Virus genome (UHGV): UHGV-1607642
From: a virus
Reading direction: 5' to 3' (one strand)
Length of the DNA: 21,789 bases
Below the pieces are notes generated by a model. It was not told the DNA's origin, searched no databases, and worked only from the letters and a program-made list of their open reading frames with translations. Positions within the stretch are counted from its first letter, which is position 1. Each line of letters opens with the position of its first letter. Positions 14,807 through 21,317 of this stretch are shown piece after piece. Position numbers and translations under genes: made by a program.

Positions 14807-15190
14807 GTGTTTATTGAAGCATTTGCGAGCCTGATGCAGAAGGCGAAGATCGGCACACTCGGCACTGACATTTTCTGTCACTACATGCCAGCCAATGTGA
14901 AGTCCGGCATCCTGTTGGTTACTCCCAATACGGGGATCGCCATTGACCATGAGTTAAAAGGTTTTTATCACGACTCTTTTACCGTCATCGTGCGTAATGC
15001 GACGATCACAAAGGCGGTGGCGAAAGCCAATAAGATCATGGACATGTTTCCGGTCGAGGAAACCGTGTCAGATGGCGTTTACTTCCGGTTGGTACGACCA
15101 ATGTCGATGCCGATAACTTATCCAAAAAACGAAGGCTCGTTGATTGAAGCGGGCATCCCGATTGAATTTGCGGGCTATTTGTTGAATTAA
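14807..15190 (+). CDS. Putative tail terminator-like protein (127 aa), by position (gpU-like slot)
   Basis: GTG start overlapping the upstream TGA (TGATGTG), SD GAGAGG. Immediately precedes the major tail gene. Confidence 0.4.
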   Translation: MFIEAFASLMQKAKIGTLGTDIFCHYMPANVKSGILLVTPNTGIAIDHELKGFYHDSFTVIVRNATITKAVAKANKIMDMFPVEETVSDGVYFRLVRPMSMPITYPKNEGSLIEAGIPIEFAGYLLN

Positions 15191-15194
15191 CAAA

Positions 15195-15212
15195 ATAAGT
15201 AAATATATACTT
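15195..15212. repeat. TAAGTA-AATATA-TACTTA element copy
   Basis: Arms TAAGTA/TACTTA with 6-nt AT spacer in the intergenic region upstream of the major tail gene. Confidence 0.7.
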
Positions 15213-15264
15213 ACTATTGGCGCCATGAAGGTGCTGATTTAACGGAAAAAGGAGTTTTCCAACA

Positions 15265-16011
15265 ATGTCCAATACCCATGTAAAAAACATCAAACTTGGC
15301 GCCTGCAAAGTGTCGTTTGGTGGTGTTGATCTGGGTTACACCAAAGGCGGTGTTCAGGTTGAGGTTGCGACCGAAACTCTGAAAGTTACCGTAGACCAGC
15401 TAGGGCAAACCACCATCTCCGAGCTGGTACAGGGCCGTAACATCACTATCACTGCGCCGCTGGCCGAGTCTGTGTTGCAGAATATGGTCGATCTGATGCC
15501 GGGTTCTACCCTGAGTGAAGAAGATAACTCTGTGACCATCACTTCCGCACAGGGCGTCAACCTGATCGACGTAGCTAAAGAGCTGGTTCTGACCCCGCAG
15601 GATACCACCGACTACGTTCTGACCATCCCGAAAGCTGCGACCGCAGGTAACTTCACCATGACCTACCAGTCTGATGATGTTCGCGTGTTCTCGGTTCAGT
15701 TCACCGCTTACCCGGATGACGACGGTATTCTGGGGAAAATGAGCGGCCCAAAGCCGGTTAAATCCGTCTCTATCTCTCCGGATTCTCCGGAAGTTAAAGC
15801 CGGTGAGAGCGTGCAGCTGGCAGCCCAGATCACACCTGCAGATGCCGGCGACAAAACCGGTGTGTGGGAGTCCGACAATCAGGAGAAGGCTACCGTTGAT
15901 CAGACTGGTCTGGTTCGCGGAGTAGCTGAAGGTTCGGCAAATATCTCCTTCACCAGCAATAGCGGCGGCAAGAAAGCGACCAAAGCTGTAACGGTTAATT
16001 CTGCCGAATAA
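15265..16011 (+). CDS. Major tail protein with C-terminal Big_2 Ig-like domain (248 aa), lambda gpV-like architecture
   Basis: Strong SD AAAAAGGAG. C-terminal ~85 aa have the Big_2 pattern (TGVWESDNQEKATVDQTGLVRGVAEGSANISF). Position upstream of the chaperone and tape measure genes. Confidence 0.8.
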   Translation: MSNTHVKNIKLGACKVSFGGVDLGYTKGGVQVEVATETLKVTVDQLGQTTISELVQGRNITITAPLAESVLQNMVDLMPGSTLSEEDNSVTITSAQGVNLIDVAKELVLTPQDTTDYVLTIPKAATAGNFTMTYQSDDVRVFSVQFTAYPDDDGILGKMSGPKPVKSVSISPDSPEVKAGESVQLAAQITPADAGDKTGVWESDNQEKATVDQTGLVRGVAEGSANISFTSNSGGKKATKAVTVNSAE

Positions 16012-16028
16012 TCGTGACGTGACTAAGC

Positions 16029-16054
16029 AGAGGCTCAGGAAGAGCCTCTCTTTT
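16029..16054 (+). terminator. Putative intrinsic terminator after the major tail gene
   Basis: AGAGGCTC aggaa GAGCCTCT followed by CTTTT. Confidence 0.5.
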
Positions 16055-16070
16055 AAAAGGATTTTAACCA

Positions 16071-16388
16071 ATGACCAAATTACTCGATCTCGACTCCATT
16101 CTACCTCCGAAGAAAAGTATCAAGTTCGGCGGTCAGGAATACCCCATCGTTGAAATGACAGTTGGTCTGTTCGTCTCCATCAAGCAGATGGAAGGCAAAG
16201 ATCTTCAGAACATGTCTCCTGTAGAGCAGGTTACTGCTTACGCCGACCTGGTTCGCAAGGTCATCCCATCCGTGCCGGACGCTGTACTGGAAAAACTGAC
16301 TGTTCCGCAGCTTCAGCAAATCTTCACCTTCGCTATGGAAGTGATTGATGAAGAGAACGAAAAAGCGGCTGGTGAAGGGGCAAAGTAA
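16071..16388 (+). CDS. Tail assembly chaperone (gpG-like, 105 aa)
   Basis: Short acidic ORF between the major tail and tape measure genes, with an overlapping downstream ORF in the -1 frame. Confidence 0.7.
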   Translation: MTKLLDLDSILPPKKSIKFGGQEYPIVEMTVGLFVSIKQMEGKDLQNMSPVEQVTAYADLVRKVIPSVPDAVLEKLTVPQLQQIFTFAMEVIDEENEKAAGEGAK

Positions 16389-16738
16389 TTTCCCGCGATG
16401 AATCCGGGGTAAAGACCGTATCGATAGATCTCGGATTCTATTTCAGTCGTGTAGTTGCTCACTACGCCGTGTCGCCATTAGAGCTGCTGGGCGTCCCTCT
16501 AACGATGTTCTGGATGCTCAGTCGCAACATCGACCGTCTACGTGCGGAAGAGGATGTCCGCAACCTGCAAGTCGCTCGCGCTGCCCAGGCAGATGGCGAG
16601 GGCGTGAAGGCGTTCATGGAGGGTTTGCAACTCAGGATTGGAAGACCAGTCGTAACCGATAAAGTCTACGATCCGCGCAAGGATAAGGCAGACCCTGACG
16701 CCAAAGAGCAACTGATGCAAATTTTTGGCAGAGGATGA
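16071..16738 (+). CDS. Tail assembly chaperone G-T fusion via probable -1 ribosomal frameshift near 16382-16385
   Basis: The -1 frame is open from 16376 to 16738 and ends 8 nt before the tape measure ATG; the frame-0 ORF ends at TAA 16386-16388. The only shared window contains A-AAG directly before the stop, where tRNA-Lys could slip from AAG to AAA. No canonical X-XXY-YYZ heptamer. Confidence 0.45.
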
Positions 16739-16745
16739 CAAGGGA

Positions 16746-19700
16746 ATGTCACAAAACGTAGAGTTTGTCCTGTCGCTGGAAGACAAGCAGTTTACAGCGT
16801 CAATCGACCGGGCGGGTAAGCTACTTACCAGATTCGGGGAGCAGGCCACAAAACCAGCTCAGAAAATTAACAATCTGGAACGCTCGTTGGGTTCGGTCTC
16901 CCGCATCATCGGCGTTCTGGAGTCCAAGCTCGATGCCACGGCAGACAAACTACAGGATGTAGCTGCCGGCTTCGAACTTGTGTCTGATGTTTCGCGCAAG
17001 ACGCGAGGCAACATTACCAGCCTCAATTCAGGTCTCAAAACCCTGATTGAGCGCGTCGACACAACCACCTCTTCCGTTAATAAGCTCACCACATCGTTGC
17101 GCAAGGTTCAGTCTGAACTCAATGAGTTTTCCGATTGGGCAACGTTCGCTGGTAAGAGCGCCAGCCGCTTCGGTACGGAGGTAAAAGAAGCCTCTACATC
17201 TGTGAGTGGTATGAATACGCGCCTTAACACCACGACGAAGCGTCTCAGTAATTGGGGTGTCACAACGAACCAGGCTGCCGAGGGGCTGAAGAAAGTCCGC
17301 GATCAGATGGATGCGGTGATTGGCCGCCAGCAGCTGATCAGCAAGCCGGTGCGTGTGCGCACCAGCGGCTACGGTGAGGGCGGTGGTAATGGCGGTGGCG
17401 GTCGACACAGCGGTTCCTATGGCCACGGCGGGCGCGGTGCTGAAAATGGCGTGTTCTCTGGTCTGCGCGGCAATATTTTCCTGCTGGGCGAGATTGGTGA
17501 TGCGGCAAGAACGGTAACTGACATCCTGTTCGGCTGGCAGAAGCCAATCGTCGAAGCTGCCTCCAAAATGGAGCGTATGCGCGTCATGTTGCGCGGGCTG
17601 AACAAGGACAAGGCCAACCCTGGCAAAGCAGCCGCAGAGGATATGCAGTACATCGTGGATATGGCGCAAAACGCCCCGTTTGCGATGCAGGCGCTGACCG
17701 ATTCCTTCGTTAAATTCCGCTCGGCAGGTCTCGATCCTACTGACGGATCGCTGAAAGCATTGGTGGACTCCGTTGCACGCTTCGGCGGCGATAGCGAGCT
17801 GCTAAAACGCGCAGCCGTGGCCGTCCAGCAGATGTCCGGTAAGGGCGTCGTGTCGATGGAAGAACTGCGTCAGCAATTAGGTGAAGCCGTTCCTAACGCG
17901 ATGAAAGCGATGGCAGACGCTGCCGGCATTACTATGGGGGAACTGACCAAAGCAGTCTCCAGCGGTACTGTGGAAGCGAAACAGGCGTTATCGCTGATGT
18001 TCGTTGGTCTGCGTGCAGAGAACGAAAACGCCGCCAAAGACATGATGCAAACCTACACCGGTGCGCTGGCGCAACTACAAACCTCCTTTACGTTGTTCGC
18101 CGATCGTGTCGGTCAGACGGGCTATCTGGATTCTCTCTCTAAGGGAATGAAAGAACTAGCCTCCATCATGAATAGCGCAGAAGGGATTTCGTTTGCTAAT
18201 TCTTTAGGTTCGGGGTTAACGACGGCAATCGATGGGTTGCGTCAGCTTGCTCAATGGTTAGCAAAGAACCAAGAGCTGGTAATTAATCTTGGTAAGGTCG
18301 TGGCCGCGATGGTTGCGTTCAAACTGATGCGAGCAGGGATCATGGGGGTAGTTGGCGCTGGGAGCCAGATGGTTAGCACCTTTGCCACGATGGCGACCGC
18401 CATACAGACTCCATTTAACCTCGGCGCTACAGCAGTAACTCGATTCAATCGTGCGGCACGTATGGGGCTGGCTCCGATCCCCTCTCTTATTTTCGCCATC
18501 CGTGGGGCGATTACGGGGCTTAAAGGCGCTTTTGCTGGATTAACGGCGTTCATTGCAGCAAATCCAATTGGCGCTGCGTTTACCGTGGCAACCGTGGCCG
18601 TGGCCGGGCTGATCACGTATATGACCATGCTTCGCAGCGAAACGTCAAAAGTCGTTGACGAAATTAGGAAAATACCAGAGGCGATGACGGCGGCCAAACG
18701 TGCACAAATGGCGGAGTATAAAGCGCGTCTTGAGCAACAAATCACGCAAAAGGAACAAGAGTTAAAATCTGACGAAAAGGTGGTTTATGGGCCGGGTATG
18801 GCCGGAACTACAGTAAAGATTAATCAGGATGAACGTAAGCGTATAGAAAATGAGCTAAATGACCTTCGTGAGAAACGCGATAAAACTACTGGGGCAATTG
18901 AACGCGGAGACACTGCTGTAGCCAAACGTCTTGCAAAAGATGCGGCAGAATCACAGATAGAGAAAATACGGGAAGAGAATAGAGACTTTGCGGCAACATT
19001 CGCTAAAGCTCGTCAAGAGGCTCTGGAGAAGATCCAAAAAATCAATGATGACGATTCACTTTCTGATGACGAAAAGAACAAACTATTGGCACCGTTACGT
19101 GAAACGGTAAACAAAAGCTATCTGGAGCCTGCGCAAAAACTGGTTGATTCACTTTCTTCTCGTAAGAATGCGACCGAGAAGCAAATCGCGACTCTTAATG
19201 ATCAGCTTGAAAAAGCCAAAAAAGATGGCAATACCGAGCAGATCCAGAAACTGCAAGGCAGTATTCGTGGTTATCAGGAGCATTTGGAAGCCGTTGCTCA
19301 GGAGCTGACTCAGGCAGAGTTCGAGAGAGATAATGCGGCCAAAACTGGTAAGGGCGTAATGTCAAACCAGGGGACTGTTCTTGGGTTAGGTACAACTGAT
19401 AAAGCTGCTCAGAAGGCGCTGGCGCAATATATGCGAAACCAGATGGATTCTGCGACTTATCAGCGTACTTTGCCTGACGGCACTCCGATGATGGACTTCG
19501 AAGGTAAGCCGATTATTGGGCCTAAACAACTCAAGACGCAGCTTAATTTGCAGAAAGCATCCAGTGCCAGCTCTCTGGAGAAAATGAGCGATGCGGAACG
19601 CGCCGCAACCATTGCAGCGCTGACCAAAGCGCGCGAACAGGATGCCGCAGCAGCGGAAAAAGCCGGGCGACGTACAGCCAATGCTTCTCAGCGTGCGGCC

Positions 19701-21317
19701 AAGAAAGAACAGGCAGCGCAACAGAAACTGGCGGCCGGATATCAGAAGGCTCTGGATAAAGCCGATCAGCTTATGGGGCAAATGGGTGAAAGCTCTAAGG
19801 CTACGGTATCGTTTGATCAGTCTCTTCGCGATACAACGAAATCGCTGACTGATTTGGCTAATGCGGTTCCTAACGAGTTCATCACTCAAGAGATGATCGA
19901 CAAGGCGAAAAAACGTCTTGAAGACCTCAAAAATGCGACACCTGAATATCGCGAGATGTTTAATCGCCGCAATGTTGAGCAGATGATCTCCACTTGGGCA
20001 CCGGAGTCGGATTCCATTATTAGTGCTGGCTATACGCCGTCTCGTGAAGAAAAAGTTGCTGATTTCGAAGACACCTACAACCGCAATCTCAAAGCGTTGA
20101 TAGAACTTCGTGATAAGGCGTCTGATCCTAAAGTTGTGGCGCTTTATACAAAGAAAATCAATCAACTGATTGCTGCTGGCAATACCGCGCTTATTAAAGA
20201 GACGGGGACTGCGACGCAGAAGTTGGCACTGGAATACGAAAACCTGGCAGAGCAGATCGAAAGCACCTGGACTGATTTGTTTAGTGGCTTAACGGATGTC
20301 CTGACTGATTTCGTTATTAACGGGAAGATGAGCTTCTCCAGCCTGTCTCAGTCCATTTTGAAAGATATCACCAATATGGTCGTGAAGTCGCAGATCACGC
20401 TGCCTCTAATGAACATGTTGGGGATGGGAACCACCGCAGCTGGTAGTTCACAGAGTGGTAATTTGCTCACCGGGGTTGCTTCCGCAGTTGCCAATCAAGG
20501 TGTGCGCATAAGCAACACTGTTAATGGCGACAAGTCGGTAGGAGAAGCCACGAAGGAGACGTCCAGTTCGGTAACTGGATTGGGGCAAACGACACAGCAG
20601 ACCACCAGCGCAATTGGCACAGCAACAAATGCGATTGGTAGCTGGGTATCAGGGCTATTTGATAGCACCGAAGCCAAAGATGCTGAGACAAAAGCAGTGA
20701 AGGATTCCATCTTCTCGATGCAGAACCTCAGCTCTGTTACCGGTGCTCTGTCTGCCGCGTTCGCAATGCTTGGAGCTAATGCTTCCGGCTCTGGTAATAA
20801 GTGGTTGAATTTCGGCGCGACAGTTGCATCTGGGTTGGTTTCAGTATGGGCAGGTGGTGGTTTCGACAGCGCGACATCAAACTCTGCTAAAACCGCAACC
20901 AGCAGTGTGGCTGACGGAACTAAAGGCATTCCTGCAATCCCGAAGTTTGCAAATGGAGGAATATTCGGAAAAGACGGCGTGATCCCGCTCCGGGCATACC
21001 AGAAAGGCGGTATTGCTAACTCGCCTCAATTAGCGTTGTTTGGGGAAGGTTCTATGAATGAGGCGTATGTTCCATTGCCTGATGGTCGAACAATCCCTGT
21101 AACGCTCAGTACCGATGGTATGAGTGGAGGAGGAAATGTTCTTTCTCCGGTATCAATTGAGATCAACGTCCATAGTGACGGTAGCACAACTGAATCCGGC
21201 GATACAGAAAGCATATGGAACAATGCCGCTCAACGGATGAAAGCAATCGCGCTTGAGACTATCGCTCAAGAGAAACGCCCTGGCGGATCACTCAACCCAA
21301 ACACTCAACGTAACTAA
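16746..21317 (+). CDS. Tail tape measure protein (1523 aa)
   Basis: Very long ORF after the G/GT pair; largely helical, low-complexity composition with a Gly-rich segment. ATG 16746 with SD AAGGGA preferred over the track's TTG at 16725. Confidence 0.9.
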   Translation: MSQNVEFVLSLEDKQFTASIDRAGKLLTRFGEQATKPAQKINNLERSLGSVSRIIGVLESKLDATADKLQDVAAGFELVSDVSRKTRGNITSLNSGLKTLIERVDTTTSSVNKLTTSLRKVQSELNEFSDWATFAGKSASRFGTEVKEASTSVSGMNTRLNTTTKRLSNWGVTTNQAAEGLKKVRDQMDAVIGRQQLISKPVRVRTSGYGEGGGNGGGGRHSGSYGHGGRGAENGVFSGLRGNIFLLGEIGDAARTVTDILFGWQKPIVEAASKMERMRVMLRGLNKDKANPGKAAAEDMQYIVDMAQNAPFAMQALTDSFVKFRSAGLDPTDGSLKALVDSVARFGGDSELLKRAAVAVQQMSGKGVVSMEELRQQLGEAVPNAMKAMADAAGITMGELTKAVSSGTVEAKQALSLMFVGLRAENENAAKDMMQTYTGALAQLQTSFTLFADRVGQTGYLDSLSKGMKELASIMNSAEGISFANSLGSGLTTAIDGLRQLAQWLAKNQELVINLGKVVAAMVAFKLMRAGIMGVVGAGSQMVSTFATMATAIQTPFNLGATAVTRFNRAARMGLAPIPSLIFAIRGAITGLKGAFAGLTAFIAANPIGAAFTVATVAVAGLITYMTMLRSETSKVVDEIRKIPEAMTAAKRAQMAEYKARLEQQITQKEQELKSDEKVVYGPGMAGTTVKINQDERKRIENELNDLREKRDKTTGAIERGDTAVAKRLAKDAAESQIEKIREENRDFAATFAKARQEALEKIQKINDDDSLSDDEKNKLLAPLRETVNKSYLEPAQKLVDSLSSRKNATEKQIATLNDQLEKAKKDGNTEQIQKLQGSIRGYQEHLEAVAQELTQAEFERDNAAKTGKGVMSNQGTVLGLGTTDKAAQKALAQYMRNQMDSATYQRTLPDGTPMMDFEGKPIIGPKQLKTQLNLQKASSASSLEKMSDAERAATIAALTKAREQDAAAAEKAGRRTANASQRAAKKEQAAQQKLAAGYQKALDKADQLMGQMGESSKATVSFDQSLRDTTKSLTDLANAVPNEFITQEMIDKAKKRLEDLKNATPEYREMFNRRNVEQMISTWAPESDSIISAGYTPSREEKVADFEDTYNRNLKALIELRDKASDPKVVALYTKKINQLIAAGNTALIKETGTATQKLALEYENLAEQIESTWTDLFSGLTDVLTDFVINGKMSFSSLSQSILKDITNMVVKSQITLPLMNMLGMGTTAAGSSQSGNLLTGVASAVANQGVRISNTVNGDKSVGEATKETSSSVTGLGQTTQQTTSAIGTATNAIGSWVSGLFDSTEAKDAETKAVKDSIFSMQNLSSVTGALSAAFAMLGANASGSGNKWLNFGATVASGLVSVWAGGGFDSATSNSAKTATSSVADGTKGIPAIPKFANGGIFGKDGVIPLRAYQKGGIANSPQLALFGEGSMNEAYVPLPDGRTIPVTLSTDGMSGGGNVLSPVSIEINVHSDGSTTESGDTESIWNNAAQRMKAIALETIAQEKRPGGSLNPNTQRN

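What the first reader, a model, noticed from the sequence alone, without database searches (positions are those of the whole stretch)
16371..16738. G/GT tail chaperone frameshift with a non-canonical slip site next to the stop codon
The -1 frame opens only 10 nt before the G-frame stop, so the shift must occur within GGGGCAAAG-TAA. There is no X-XXY-YYZ heptamer; the only plausible event is tRNA-Lys slipping from AAG to AAA with the A site on a stop codon. That would be an atypical, stop-codon-assisted programmed frameshift at a conserved phage recoding position.
Basis: partly seen in the sequence, partly recalled or inferred. Interest (0 to 1): 0.45.

Follow-up and report, generated by a model that had tools for sequence, protein, structure and literature searches.

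The report
Tail chaperone frameshift at A-AAG-stop
Two small genes between the tail-tube and tape-measure genes of this SSU5/pMT1-type phage-plasmid are almost certainly joined by a -1 ribosomal slip on the four bases A-AAG just before the stop codon; this is a known kind of event at an unusual, minimal, so far unannotated slip site.

Summary
G (16071-16388) ends GCA AAG TAA. The -1 frame is closed by TGA at 16373-16375 and open from 16376 to 16738. The 10-nt overlap holds no X_XXY_YYZ heptamer.

Comparison of 97 distinct homologous G/T junctions shows that the downstream frame is translated from the G stop onward:
- A conserved peptide, KV(I/V)(S/T)R...S/T-ID(L/F)GFYF(S/C)R, starts at the stop.
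- Substitutions fall mainly on the third codon position of the -1 frame.
- Indels are 3 nt long.
- 32 of 38 junctions in the window's clade have no start codon in the linker, and GTG 16469 is not conserved.

All 38 distinct junctions of the SSU5-like clade (T identity down to 50%, G down to 35%) keep (GCA|GTA) AAG TA(A|G). The GGG codon and neighbouring synonymous sites vary. More distant relatives carry canonical heptamers (G_GGA_AAG/C, C_CCA_AAG, A_AAA_AAG), which abut the stop in 18 of 55 cases.

So this is a lambda-type G/GT tail assembly chaperone frameshift made by tRNA-Lys slipping from AAG to AAA. Whether the stop codon sits in the A site at that moment is unresolved. A hairpin with covariation support (16400-16438) lies too far downstream to be a classical stimulator.

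It is a new variant of a known kind and of moderate interest.

The parts
15265..16011 (+). Major tail (tube) protein with C-terminal Ig-like domain; upstream neighbour that fixes the G/GT position
   Evidence: Pfam Big_2 2.8e-26; phrog_1280 and several 'major tail protein' PHROGs; annotated as Ig domain / tail protein in SSU5 and Cyrano
16071..16388 (+). G: 105-aa, 11.6-kDa acidic protein, the zero-frame tail assembly chaperone candidate
   Evidence: ORF; phrog_893 2.8e-49; AlphaFold model pLDDT 72 with best BFVD hit 'tail assembly chaperone', E 4.8e-4; weak Pfam Phage_TAC_19/TAC_7 hits in distant family members
16373..16375 (+). TGA in the -1 frame (inside GGT GAA) that closes the T frame upstream and limits the shift window to 16376-16385
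   Evidence: The TGA comes from the synonymous GGT codon. Relatives with GGC/GGA/GGG lack it and have longer overlaps of 25-94 nt.
16380..16388 (+). Shift cassette GCA AAG TAA: the tetramer A_AAG (16382-16385) directly followed by the G stop codon
   Evidence: Columns -4 to +1 (A AAG TA) are invariant in 38/38 distinct junctions of the clade, while neighbouring 4-fold sites show 3-4 different bases. GCA changes to GTA but keeps the third-position A.
16385..16738 (+). T part in the -1 frame: 117 codons from GTA 16385 to TGA 16736-16738, added to G to give a 222-aa, 24.7-kDa GT fusion
   Evidence: phrog_1131 1.8e-40; homologs in Pseudomonas and Rhizobium phages align from just after their G stop
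16385..16450 (+). Linker and conserved motif (VISRDESGVKTVS-IDLGFYFSR) lying upstream of any start codon; ID = 16424-16429
   Evidence: I14, D15 and R22 are invariant across distant homologs. Synonymous:nonsynonymous differences are 1529:1698 in the -1 frame against 349:2606 and 256:2638 in the other frames. Indels are 3 nt. 32/38 junctions have no ATG/GTG/TTG in the linker.
16400..16438 (+). Conserved RNA hairpin: 11-bp stem GAAUCCGGGGU / AUCUCGGAUUC with a 17-nt loop, starting 14 nt after AAG and 11 nt after the stop. Role unproven.
   Evidence: MFE -13.4 kcal/mol. 94.2% of cells are paired, 3 pairs carry compensatory double changes, and 0/500 shuffles reach the observed values. The fold z-score of the single sequence is not significant (-1.1).
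16746..21317 (+). Tape measure protein gene, the downstream neighbour; its ATG lies 8 nt after the T stop
   Evidence: AAGGGA Shine-Dalgarno sequence before ATG 16746; annotated as tape measure protein in SSU5, Cyrano and Klebsiella phages

Best explanation
G and T form a lambda-type G/GT tail assembly chaperone pair. Most ribosomes translate G and terminate at TAA 16386, giving the 11.6-kDa G protein. A minority slip back one base on A_AAG (16382-16385): the single enterobacterial tRNA-Lys (anticodon UUU) leaves AAG and re-pairs with AAA. The next codon read is then GTA 16385, and translation continues in the -1 frame to 16738, giving a 24.7-kDa GT fusion. By analogy with lambda, its T part would link the tape measure/G complex to the major tail protein.

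I slightly favour (about 55:45) the version in which the slip occurs after translocation, with AAG in the P site and the slowly decoded stop codon in the A site. The alternative is A-site slippage on the hexanucleotide GCA_AAG.

Shown here: the frame geometry, that the -1 frame is coding from the stop onward, and nucleotide-level conservation of (GCA|GTA) AAG TAR.

Inferred: the slip itself, which tRNA slips, when it slips, the efficiency, and the chaperone function.
For: 1. Geometry. The -1 frame is open only from 16376, and A_AAG is the only Z_ZZN site there.

2. T is translated from the stop onward. The motif ID(L/F)xFxF(S/A/C)R lies 1-13 codons after the G stop in nearly all of the 97 distinct junctions from SSU5-like, Pseudomonas Nickievirus, Rhizobium phage and metagenomic relatives; in a few it overlaps the end of G. 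It is always in the -1 frame. Within the clade the linker shows excess third-position variation, a TCC/AGC serine codon switch and 3-nt indels.

3. Start codons. 32/38 junctions have no start codon in the linker. GTG 16469 is not conserved and neither it nor ATG 16505 has a Shine-Dalgarno sequence.

4. Site conservation. (GCA|GTA) AAG TA(A|G) is present in all 38 distinct junctions with T identity >=50% (G identity down to 35%; hosts include Salmonella, Escherichia, Klebsiella, Yersinia, Photorhabdus and Moellerella). The preceding codon varies (GGG/GAG/GAA/GAC/GAT) and nearby 4-fold sites are unconstrained.

5. Natural mapping. The lineages with the -1-frame TGA at -13 exclude the upstream GAA AAA run as the site.

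6. Distant relatives. 55 of the 59 junctions outside the clade have canonical -1 heptamers at the equivalent place; 18 directly abut the stop and 15 are one codon away. The A_AAG-stop arrangement therefore looks like a reduced form of a family-wide cassette.

7. Literature. A_AAG is the most efficient -1 tetramer in E. coli (PMC4066793). NNA_AAG sites are used naturally by IS1222 and cdd, and their efficiency depends on the wobble properties of the tRNA reading the 5' codon (PMC5009743).

8. Context. The pair lies between the major tail protein and tape measure genes, and the G model matches tail assembly chaperones.
Against: No protein-level data exist; everything rests on comparative sequence analysis.

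In reporter assays A_AAG alone, without a stimulator, was barely above background (about 0.15% against 0.11%, PMC4066793). Lambda needs roughly a 30:1 G:GT ratio (PMC5009743). No classically placed stimulator was found here:
- The conserved hairpin starts 14 nt after AAG, compared with the usual 5-9 nt.
- The closer small hairpin (16391-16409) has no covariation support.
- The upstream GGNGA is not conserved as a Shine-Dalgarno-like sequence.

The base after the stop is T in 36/38 junctions. From my own knowledge, UAAU is an efficient termination context in E. coli, which does not suit a 'weak stop' model.

Proximity of the stop is also common in relatives with heptamers one codon away from it. 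It may therefore reflect something other than A-site vacancy.
Confidence: 0.8

Rival explanations
1. The site and product are the same, but the stop codon plays no part. tRNA-Lys slips while in the A site, with tRNA-Ala (GCA) or tRNA-Val (GUA) in the P site. This is the NNA_AAG hexanucleotide mechanism of IS1222, IS3 constructs and B. subtilis cdd. The stop lies adjacent only because the family keeps the G tail short.
For: The 5' codon is restricted to GCA or GTA in 38/38 junctions, and the third-position A is kept across an Ala-to-Val change. From my own knowledge, both codons are read in E. coli by cmo5U34 tRNAs with extended wobble, the class reported to favour NNA_AAG shifting (summarised in PMC5009743). 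Heptamer-bearing relatives often place the stop one codon away rather than adjacent (15 of 55), so a nearby stop does not in itself show that it acts from the A site.
Against: The stop is adjacent in 38/38 clade junctions even though G identity falls to 35% and indels occur elsewhere. With AAG in the A site the hairpin would be even further from the mRNA entry channel (+21 from the first P-site base). No stimulator with the spacing used in the IS/cdd cases was found.
Confidence: 0.35
2. There is no frameshift. T is made on its own from an internal start (GTG 16469 or ATG 16505, as current GenBank records annotate it), and the open frame upstream of it is incidental.
For: This is how SSU5 (ATG at the position equivalent to 16505), Cyrano and PhiR41_1 (GTG 16469) and 798 plasmid records annotate it. 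The phrog_1131 profile starts near there, but it was built from such annotations.
Against: GTG 16469 is GTA, GTC or ATT in relatives. The ATG 16505 position is not Met in Pseudomonas or Rhizobium homologs. Neither start has a Shine-Dalgarno sequence. The 28 codons upstream of GTG 16469 hold 3 of the 12 invariant residues of the family and evolve under purifying selection in the -1 frame only. In nearly all 97 junctions the -1 frame stays open across the G stop.
Confidence: 0.04
3. The shift occurs elsewhere or by another route: tRNA-Gly on GGG (A_GGG or a +2 move to GGC), the upstream GAA AAA run, RNA polymerase slippage, or a long hop to a downstream AAG.
For: GGGG and GAAAAAG runs are present in the window. 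An AAG lies in the -1 frame at 16412.
Against: GGG is replaced by GAG/GAA/GAC/GAT in the clade. The GAA AAA run lies upstream of the -1-frame TGA in the window, and it is GAA GCC in some lineages. Runs of 3-5 bases are too short for productive transcriptional slippage (established knowledge). AAG 16412 is not conserved, and the bases that a hop would skip encode a conserved peptide.
Confidence: 0.03

Closest known systems
Phage lambda G/GT (and HK97, P2 E/E', mycobacteriophage) tail assembly chaperone -1 frameshift (Levin 1993; Xu, Hendrix & Duda 2004, as cited in PMC5009743)
   Same: Gene order is major tail protein - G - T - tape measure. T has no start codon of its own and lies in the -1 frame. 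The shift is near the 3' end of G, and the shifting codon is lysine AAG. The G model resembles tail assembly chaperones.
   Different: Lambda uses the tandem-slippage heptamer G_GGA_AAG. Here the P-site half is missing (GCA or GTA instead of GGA), so only one tRNA can re-pair. The shift codon is the last sense codon of G. There is no sequence-level membership in any Pfam Phage_TAC family.
NNA_AAG / A_AAG single-tRNA -1 frameshift sites: IS1222 (G_CGA_AAG), B. subtilis cdd (A_CGA_AAG), IS3-derived constructs (Licznar 2003; Sharma 2014)
   Same: The same tetramer, the same tRNA-Lys AAG-to-AAA re-pairing, and a 5' NNA codon read by a wobble-prone tRNA. The hosts have a single tRNA-Lys(UUU).
   Different: Those sites depend on a downstream pseudoknot or hairpin at about 5-8 nt, or an upstream Shine-Dalgarno-like sequence at about 14 nt. 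Here the conserved hairpin starts 14 nt downstream, no conserved Shine-Dalgarno-like sequence exists, and a stop codon directly follows. The gene context is a phage tail chaperone, not a transposase or a housekeeping enzyme.
'Shifty stop' frameshifting (Weiss et al. 1987; prfB CUU_UGA +1; antizyme)
   Same: The slippery codon is immediately 5' of a stop codon, so termination and slippage could compete, with the shifting tRNA in the P site.
   Different: The direction is -1, not +1. There is no closely spaced upstream Shine-Dalgarno sequence. No evidence was obtained for dependence on release-factor level.
E. coli dnaX A_AAA_AAG -1 frameshift
   Same: Lys AAG is the key shifty codon in an enterobacterial host, and two products are made in a set ratio from one gene.
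   Different: dnaX has a full heptamer plus a Shine-Dalgarno-like sequence 10 nt upstream and a hairpin 6 nt downstream, and its shifted frame terminates almost at once.

Membership tests
Lambda-type G/GT tail assembly chaperone with programmed -1 frameshift | Located between the major tail (tube) protein gene and the tape measure gene | tested here: met
   15265-16011 is an Ig-domain major tail protein. The tape measure gene starts at 16746. The same order is found in all annotated relatives.
Lambda-type G/GT tail assembly chaperone with programmed -1 frameshift | The downstream ORF is in the -1 frame, overlaps the end of G, lacks its own start, and is coding from the overlap onward | tested here: met
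   238 of 242 loci compatible with -1 only; conserved peptide and purifying selection starting at the G stop; no start codon in 32/38 linkers
Lambda-type G/GT tail assembly chaperone with programmed -1 frameshift | X_XXY_YYZ slippery heptamer in the overlap | tested here: not met
   None in 16376-16385 and none in any of the 38 clade junctions. It is present in 55 of 59 more distant homologs.
Lambda-type G/GT tail assembly chaperone with programmed -1 frameshift | G has the tail assembly chaperone fold or sequence family | tested here: inconclusive
Lambda-type G/GT tail assembly chaperone with programmed -1 frameshift | A G-T fusion protein is made at a few percent of G and is needed for tail assembly | not testable with these tools
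   Needs Western blot or mass spectrometry and genetics.
A_AAG / NNA_AAG single-tRNA -1 frameshift sites (IS1222, cdd type) | A_AAG with AAG as a zero-frame codon and AAA available in the -1 frame | tested here: met
   16382-16385, invariant in 38/38 junctions
A_AAG / NNA_AAG single-tRNA -1 frameshift sites (IS1222, cdd type) | The 5' NNA codon is read by a tRNA with extended wobble | not testable with these tools
   The codon is GCA (34) or GTA (4). That both are read by cmo5U34 tRNAs is my own knowledge. The rule itself comes from PMC5009743.
A_AAG / NNA_AAG single-tRNA -1 frameshift sites (IS1222, cdd type) | A stimulator at canonical spacing (structure 5-9 nt downstream, or a Shine-Dalgarno-like sequence 10-14 nt upstream) | tested here: not met
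   The covariation-supported hairpin starts 14 nt downstream. The small hairpin at 5 nt has no covariation. The upstream GGNGA is variable and only 7 nt away. No Rfam frameshift element was found.
Shifty-stop (termination-competing) frameshifting | The stop codon is immediately 3' of the shift codon and this is conserved | tested here: met
   TAA (33) or TAG (5) directly after AAG in 38/38 junctions. 18 of 55 heptamer-bearing relatives also abut the stop.
Shifty-stop (termination-competing) frameshifting | The frameshift level depends on the stop codon or on release-factor activity | not testable with these tools
   Needs a reporter assay with stop-to-sense substitutions and RF1/RF2 titration.

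The most novel reading that the evidence does not exclude
The SSU5/pMT1 clade sets its G:GT ratio by a termination-competing -1 frameshift. tRNA-Lys slips in the P site while the ribosome waits on the stop codon. The conserved hairpin sits just at the leading edge of the terminating ribosome (base at +18 from the first P-site nucleotide) and slows or modulates termination. This would be a -1 counterpart of the prfB shifty stop, and it could make tail-chaperone stoichiometry sensitive to release-factor activity in the host.
Probability: 0.25. Interest if true: 0.6.

Novelty: new variant of a known kind. Interest (0 to 1): 0.42.

Why it matters
There are three reasons.

1. Annotation. The same G/T pair occurs in 798 PLSDB plasmids. 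Among them, Yersinia pestis CO92 pMT1 and Salmonella, Enterobacter and Citrobacter plasmids encode a GT identical to the window's, and many Klebsiella and E. coli phage-plasmids carry close relatives. In every record listed in the calls made here it appears as two 'hypothetical proteins' with inconsistent T start codons or has no annotation at all. The correct product is a joined 222-aa GT protein.

2. Recoding. It gives a natural, deeply conserved case in which a tail chaperone frameshift works from a tetranucleotide/hexanucleotide site abutting a stop codon. The family also contains canonical heptamer + stop + hairpin cassettes in sister lineages. That makes it a ready comparative system for asking how much slippery sequence and which stimulators are needed for a low, fixed frameshift ratio.

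3. Prediction tools. Tools that search for heptamers will miss this class.

Tried and rejected
- **Independent start at GTG 16469 or ATG 16505:** rejected. Neither is conserved, neither has a Shine-Dalgarno sequence, and conserved coding sequence lies upstream.
- **Shift on GGGG:** rejected, because the GGG codon varies within the clade.
- **Shift on the upstream GAAAAAG run:** rejected for the window because of the -1-frame TGA at 16373; the run is also absent in some lineages.
- **+1 frame:** it closes at 16401.
- **Small hairpin 16391-16409 at canonical spacing:** folds at -7 kcal/mol with z-score 0 and shows no covariation. There is no support for it as a stimulator.
- **Upstream Shine-Dalgarno-like stimulator:** GGNGA varies at N and is 7 nt from AAG. 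Not supported.
- **Rfam scan of 16250-16560:** only chance-level hits.
- **Promoter/terminator scan of 15900-16900:** nothing at the junction.
- **Pfam on G, T and GT:** no hits.
- **PDB sequence profile search with the G family:** nothing meaningful.
- **The search for homologous proteins with G:** only close, unnamed relatives.
- **Genome-contig scan with the alignment:** The single-protein scan gave 7 loci.
- **Licznar et al. 2003:** could not be read. Its content is cited only through the two reviews and papers that summarise it.
- **megablast of L106 and L107 against plasmids:** found no host.
- **Bypass or hop to AAG 16412:** considered and rejected.
Full report
**What the window is**

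The region 15200-17400 is 96.5% identical to Salmonella phage SSU5 and 82-85% identical to E. coli and Klebsiella SSU5-like phage-plasmids. The predicted G-T fusion protein is 100% identical to sequences in Yersinia pestis CO92 pMT1 and in Salmonella, Enterobacter and Citrobacter plasmids. tblastn finds it in 798 PLSDB plasmids; every listed record annotates it as two hypothetical proteins.

The local gene order is as follows:
- tail terminator, 14807-15190 (Pfam Phage_tail_terminator_6)
- Ig-domain major tail protein, 15265-16011
- a 105-aa ORF, 'G', 16071-16388 (phrog_893, unknown function)
- a second small ORF, 'T' (phrog_1131, unknown function)
- the tape measure gene, from ATG 16746

**Checking the observation**

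G ends GGT GAA GGG GCA AAG TAA, with the stop at 16386-16388. The -1 frame has a TGA at 16373-16375 and is then open to the TGA at 16736-16738. The two frames therefore overlap by only 10 nt, A GGG GCA AAG.

No X_XXY_YYZ heptamer fits in that stretch. The only Z_ZZN tetramer in phase is A_AAG at 16382-16385. The +1 frame closes at 16401. The first canonical start codon in the -1 frame is GTG 16469.

**Is the -1 frame translated from the junction?**

tblastn with the hypothetical fusion found distant homologs in Pseudomonas Nickievirus phages and in ~115-120-kb Rhizobium phages. These matches begin upstream of the position of GTG 16469.

In each of those genomes the same layout holds: major tail protein, G-like ORF, -1 ORF, tape measure gene. 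The -1 frame is open across the G stop. A six-sequence alignment of the T parts has 12 invariant residues. Three of them (I14, D15, R22 of the motif IDLGFYFSR, window 16424-16450) lie upstream of GTG 16469.

Three scans of IMG/VR with that alignment gave 240 loci. Of 246 motif occurrences, 242 have a long upstream ORF ending just before or slightly overlapping the motif; 238 of them fit a -1 relationship only, and the other 4 also fit +1. After removing duplicates and two spurious matches there are 97 distinct junctions.

Within the clade that contains the window (38 distinct junctions):
- The linker between the G stop and the ID motif is 39 or 42 nt, so its indels are multiples of three.
- Pairwise differences fall 1340/849/2426 on -1-frame codon positions 1/2/3.
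- The synonymous:nonsynonymous ratio is 1529:1698 in the -1 frame, against 349:2606 and 256:2638 in the other two frames.
- One serine changes between TCC and AGC.
- 32 of the 38 linkers contain no ATG, GTG or TTG.

GTG 16469 is GTA in the Klebsiella group and GTC or ATT elsewhere. Neither GTG 16469 nor ATG 16505 (the start chosen in the SSU5 record) has a Shine-Dalgarno sequence.

The peptide K-V-I/V-S/T-R... is conserved from the very first -1 codon after the slip. T is therefore made as an extension of G by a -1 change of frame. Independent initiation is effectively excluded.

**Where the shift occurs**

The clade provides a natural mutational map. All 38 distinct junctions whose T part is at least 50% identical to the window's end in (GCA or GTA) AAG TA(A or G). 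Their G identity falls to 35%, and their hosts include Salmonella, Escherichia, Klebsiella, Enterobacter, Yersinia, Kluyvera, Photorhabdus and Moellerella. All 59 junctions with T identity of 42% or less end differently.

Column by column, the seven bases A AAG TA are invariant. By contrast:
- The preceding codon is GGG, GAG, GAA, GAC or GAT.
- The 4-fold sites three, four and five codons upstream show three or four different bases.
- The Ala codon changes to Val (GCA to GTA) but keeps its third-position A.

That pattern indicates selection on the nucleotides, not on the amino acids. It rules out the GGGG run as the site.

Many lineages, including the window, also carry the -1-frame TGA created by the synonymous GGT codon. 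This rules out the upstream GAA AAA run, which in some lineages is replaced by GAA GCC anyway.

The only event consistent with all this is re-pairing of tRNA-Lys from AAG to AAA. The next codon read is then GTA.

**How this relates to the rest of the family**

Of the 59 junctions outside the clade, 55 have a canonical heptamer in phase near the end of G:

| Heptamer | Junctions |
|---|---|
| G_GGA_AAC | 16 |
| G_GGA_AAG | 14 |
| A_AAA_AAG | 10 |
| G_GGA_AAA | 5 |
| A_AAC_CCT | 4 |
| C_CCA_AAG | 3 |
| other | 3 |

The heptamer abuts the G stop in 18 junctions and is one codon away in 15.

In many of these relatives a strong stem-loop is predicted to begin 3-8 nt after the heptamer. Its 3' arm is made of the GGN TTC codons of the conserved ID-F-G-F motif. 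That is a textbook -1 cassette. The SSU5-like clade looks like a reduced form of it: the P-site half of the heptamer is gone, the stop is still adjacent, and the linker is longer (11-12 codons).

A few other lineages also lack a heptamer. They have G_GGA next to the stop or a conserved C_CCT (L118, L233, L102, L103). Minimal sites may therefore not be rare in this family.

**Possible stimulators**

RNAfold predicts an 11-bp hairpin at 16400-16438, GAAUCCGGGGU/AUCUCGGAUUC, at -13.4 kcal/mol. The z-score for the single sequence is unremarkable at -1.1.

On an alignment of 25 clade junctions:
- 94.2% of cells are paired (shuffles 88.3 ± 0.9).
- Three pairs show compensatory double changes. One pair has UA, AU, GC and UG, linking the first base of a Ser/Ala/Asp/Lys/Asn codon to the third base of a Gly codon.
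- No shuffle out of 500 reaches the observed values.
- Slid controls are far lower.

I take the hairpin as real. However, it begins 14 nt after AAG and 11 nt after the stop. That places it at about +18 from the first P-site base when AAG is in the P site, and +21 when AAG is in the A site. The classical position is about +12 to +15. Its role is therefore open.

A smaller hairpin at the canonical distance (16391-16409) has no covariation and no energetic significance. The upstream GGNGA is variable and poorly spaced. Rfam has no match.

**Mechanism**

According to the literature read here:
- A_AAG is the most efficient -1 tetramer in E. coli, reaching 5.6% with a strong pseudoknot. Without a stimulator it is barely above background (PMC4066793).
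- NNA_AAG sites are used naturally by IS1222 and occur in B. subtilis cdd.
- Their efficiency depends on the wobble behaviour of the tRNA that reads the NNA codon, because that tRNA must release the A (PMC5009743).

From my own knowledge, GCA and GUA are read by cmo5U34 tRNAs of the extended-wobble class, which fits. 'Shifty stops', meaning enhancement of slippage by an adjacent stop, are also established (Weiss 1987, cited in PMC5009743).

Two timings give the same protein:
1. Slippage of peptidyl-tRNA-Lys in the P site while the stop occupies the A site.
2. Slippage of aminoacyl-tRNA-Lys in the A site next to tRNA-Ala or tRNA-Val.

The absolute conservation of stop adjacency, and the somewhat better hairpin geometry, make me lean slightly to the first. 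Against it, the efficient UAAU context (T follows the stop in 36/38 junctions) and the heptamer relatives with a stop one codon away argue for caution. Sequence analysis cannot settle this.

**Is G a tail assembly chaperone?**

Position and recoding say yes. Sequence profiles do not:
- No Pfam hit for the window protein.
- Only sub-threshold Phage_TAC_19 and Phage_TAC_7 hits in three distant members.
- Nothing in a PDB sequence profile search.

**Verdict**

Its interpretation is right in the main: a G/GT -1 frameshift at A_AAG beside the stop. The claim that the stop codon must be in the A site is one of two live options.

The event belongs to a known kind (tail chaperone G/GT recoding) and uses a known minimal slip site (A_AAG / NNA_AAG). 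The combination was not found in the literature searches made here and is not annotated in the public records examined. That combination is a tail chaperone gene, the last sense codon, an adjacent stop, a long-spaced conserved hairpin, and conservation across an Enterobacterales-wide phage-plasmid clade that includes pMT1.

I rate it a new variant of a known kind, with interest about 0.4.

Noticed in passing
window 16029-16054: A perfect 8-bp GC-rich hairpin (AGAGGCTC-AGGAA-GAGCCTCT) followed by CTTTT lies in the 59-nt gap between the major tail protein stop and the G start. It looks like a (partial) intrinsic terminator that would lower expression of G, GT and the tape measure gene relative to the tube protein. 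The simple terminator scan missed it because the T-run has only 4 T's.
   Followed up: partly
window 16071-16738; NC_003134.1 18307-18971 and 797 other PLSDB plasmids: The G/T pair is annotated as two separate hypothetical proteins in every annotated record listed, including Y. pestis CO92 pMT1, whose GT is 100% identical. The chosen T starts are inconsistent: ATG at the position equivalent to 16505 in SSU5, Klebsiella phage ST13-OXA48phi12.3 and pJN2-26, and GTG 16469 in Cyrano and PhiR41_1. This is a systematic annotation gap.
   Followed up: yes
loci L117, L115, L144, L150, L160, L190, L208 and others (IMG/VR contigs), just 3' of their G stop: Distant family members carry a full cassette: a heptamer directly abutting the stop, then a two-tier stem-loop starting 3-6 nt downstream. 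Its inner 10-bp stem is formed by the codons GAG GAA ATC GAC TTC GGT TTC TTC, that is, by the conserved ID-F-G-F motif itself. The conserved peptide motif and the RNA stimulator are encoded by the same bases.
   Followed up: partly
loci L118, L123, L213 (GCG GGA TAA/TGA); L105, L123, L140, L213, L233 (AAC CCT or GAC CCT): Other lineages of the same family lack a good heptamer. They keep G_GGA next to the stop, or a conserved C_CCT tetramer 12-18 nt before it. This suggests that tetranucleotide sites arose more than once in this chaperone family.
   Followed up: no
window 16371-16375 and the equivalent position in relatives: The synonymous Gly codon polymorphism GGT/GGC/GGA/GGG switches a -1-frame TGA on and off. 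The G/T overlap is 10 nt in the SSU5/pMT1-type lineages and 25-94 nt in the others, with no other change at the junction. This acts as a natural deletion map of the shift window.
   Followed up: yes
loci L141, L119, L155 (IMG/VR): These junctions read GCA AAA AAG TAA/TAG and have a long linker (12-13 codons to the ID motif). They differ from the SSU5-clade GCA AAG TAA by exactly one AAA codon. That hints that the clade's site arose by loss of one codon from an A_AAA_AAG-stop cassette. However, these loci are not the closest outgroups by identity (T 33-36%), so this is only a lead.
   Followed up: no
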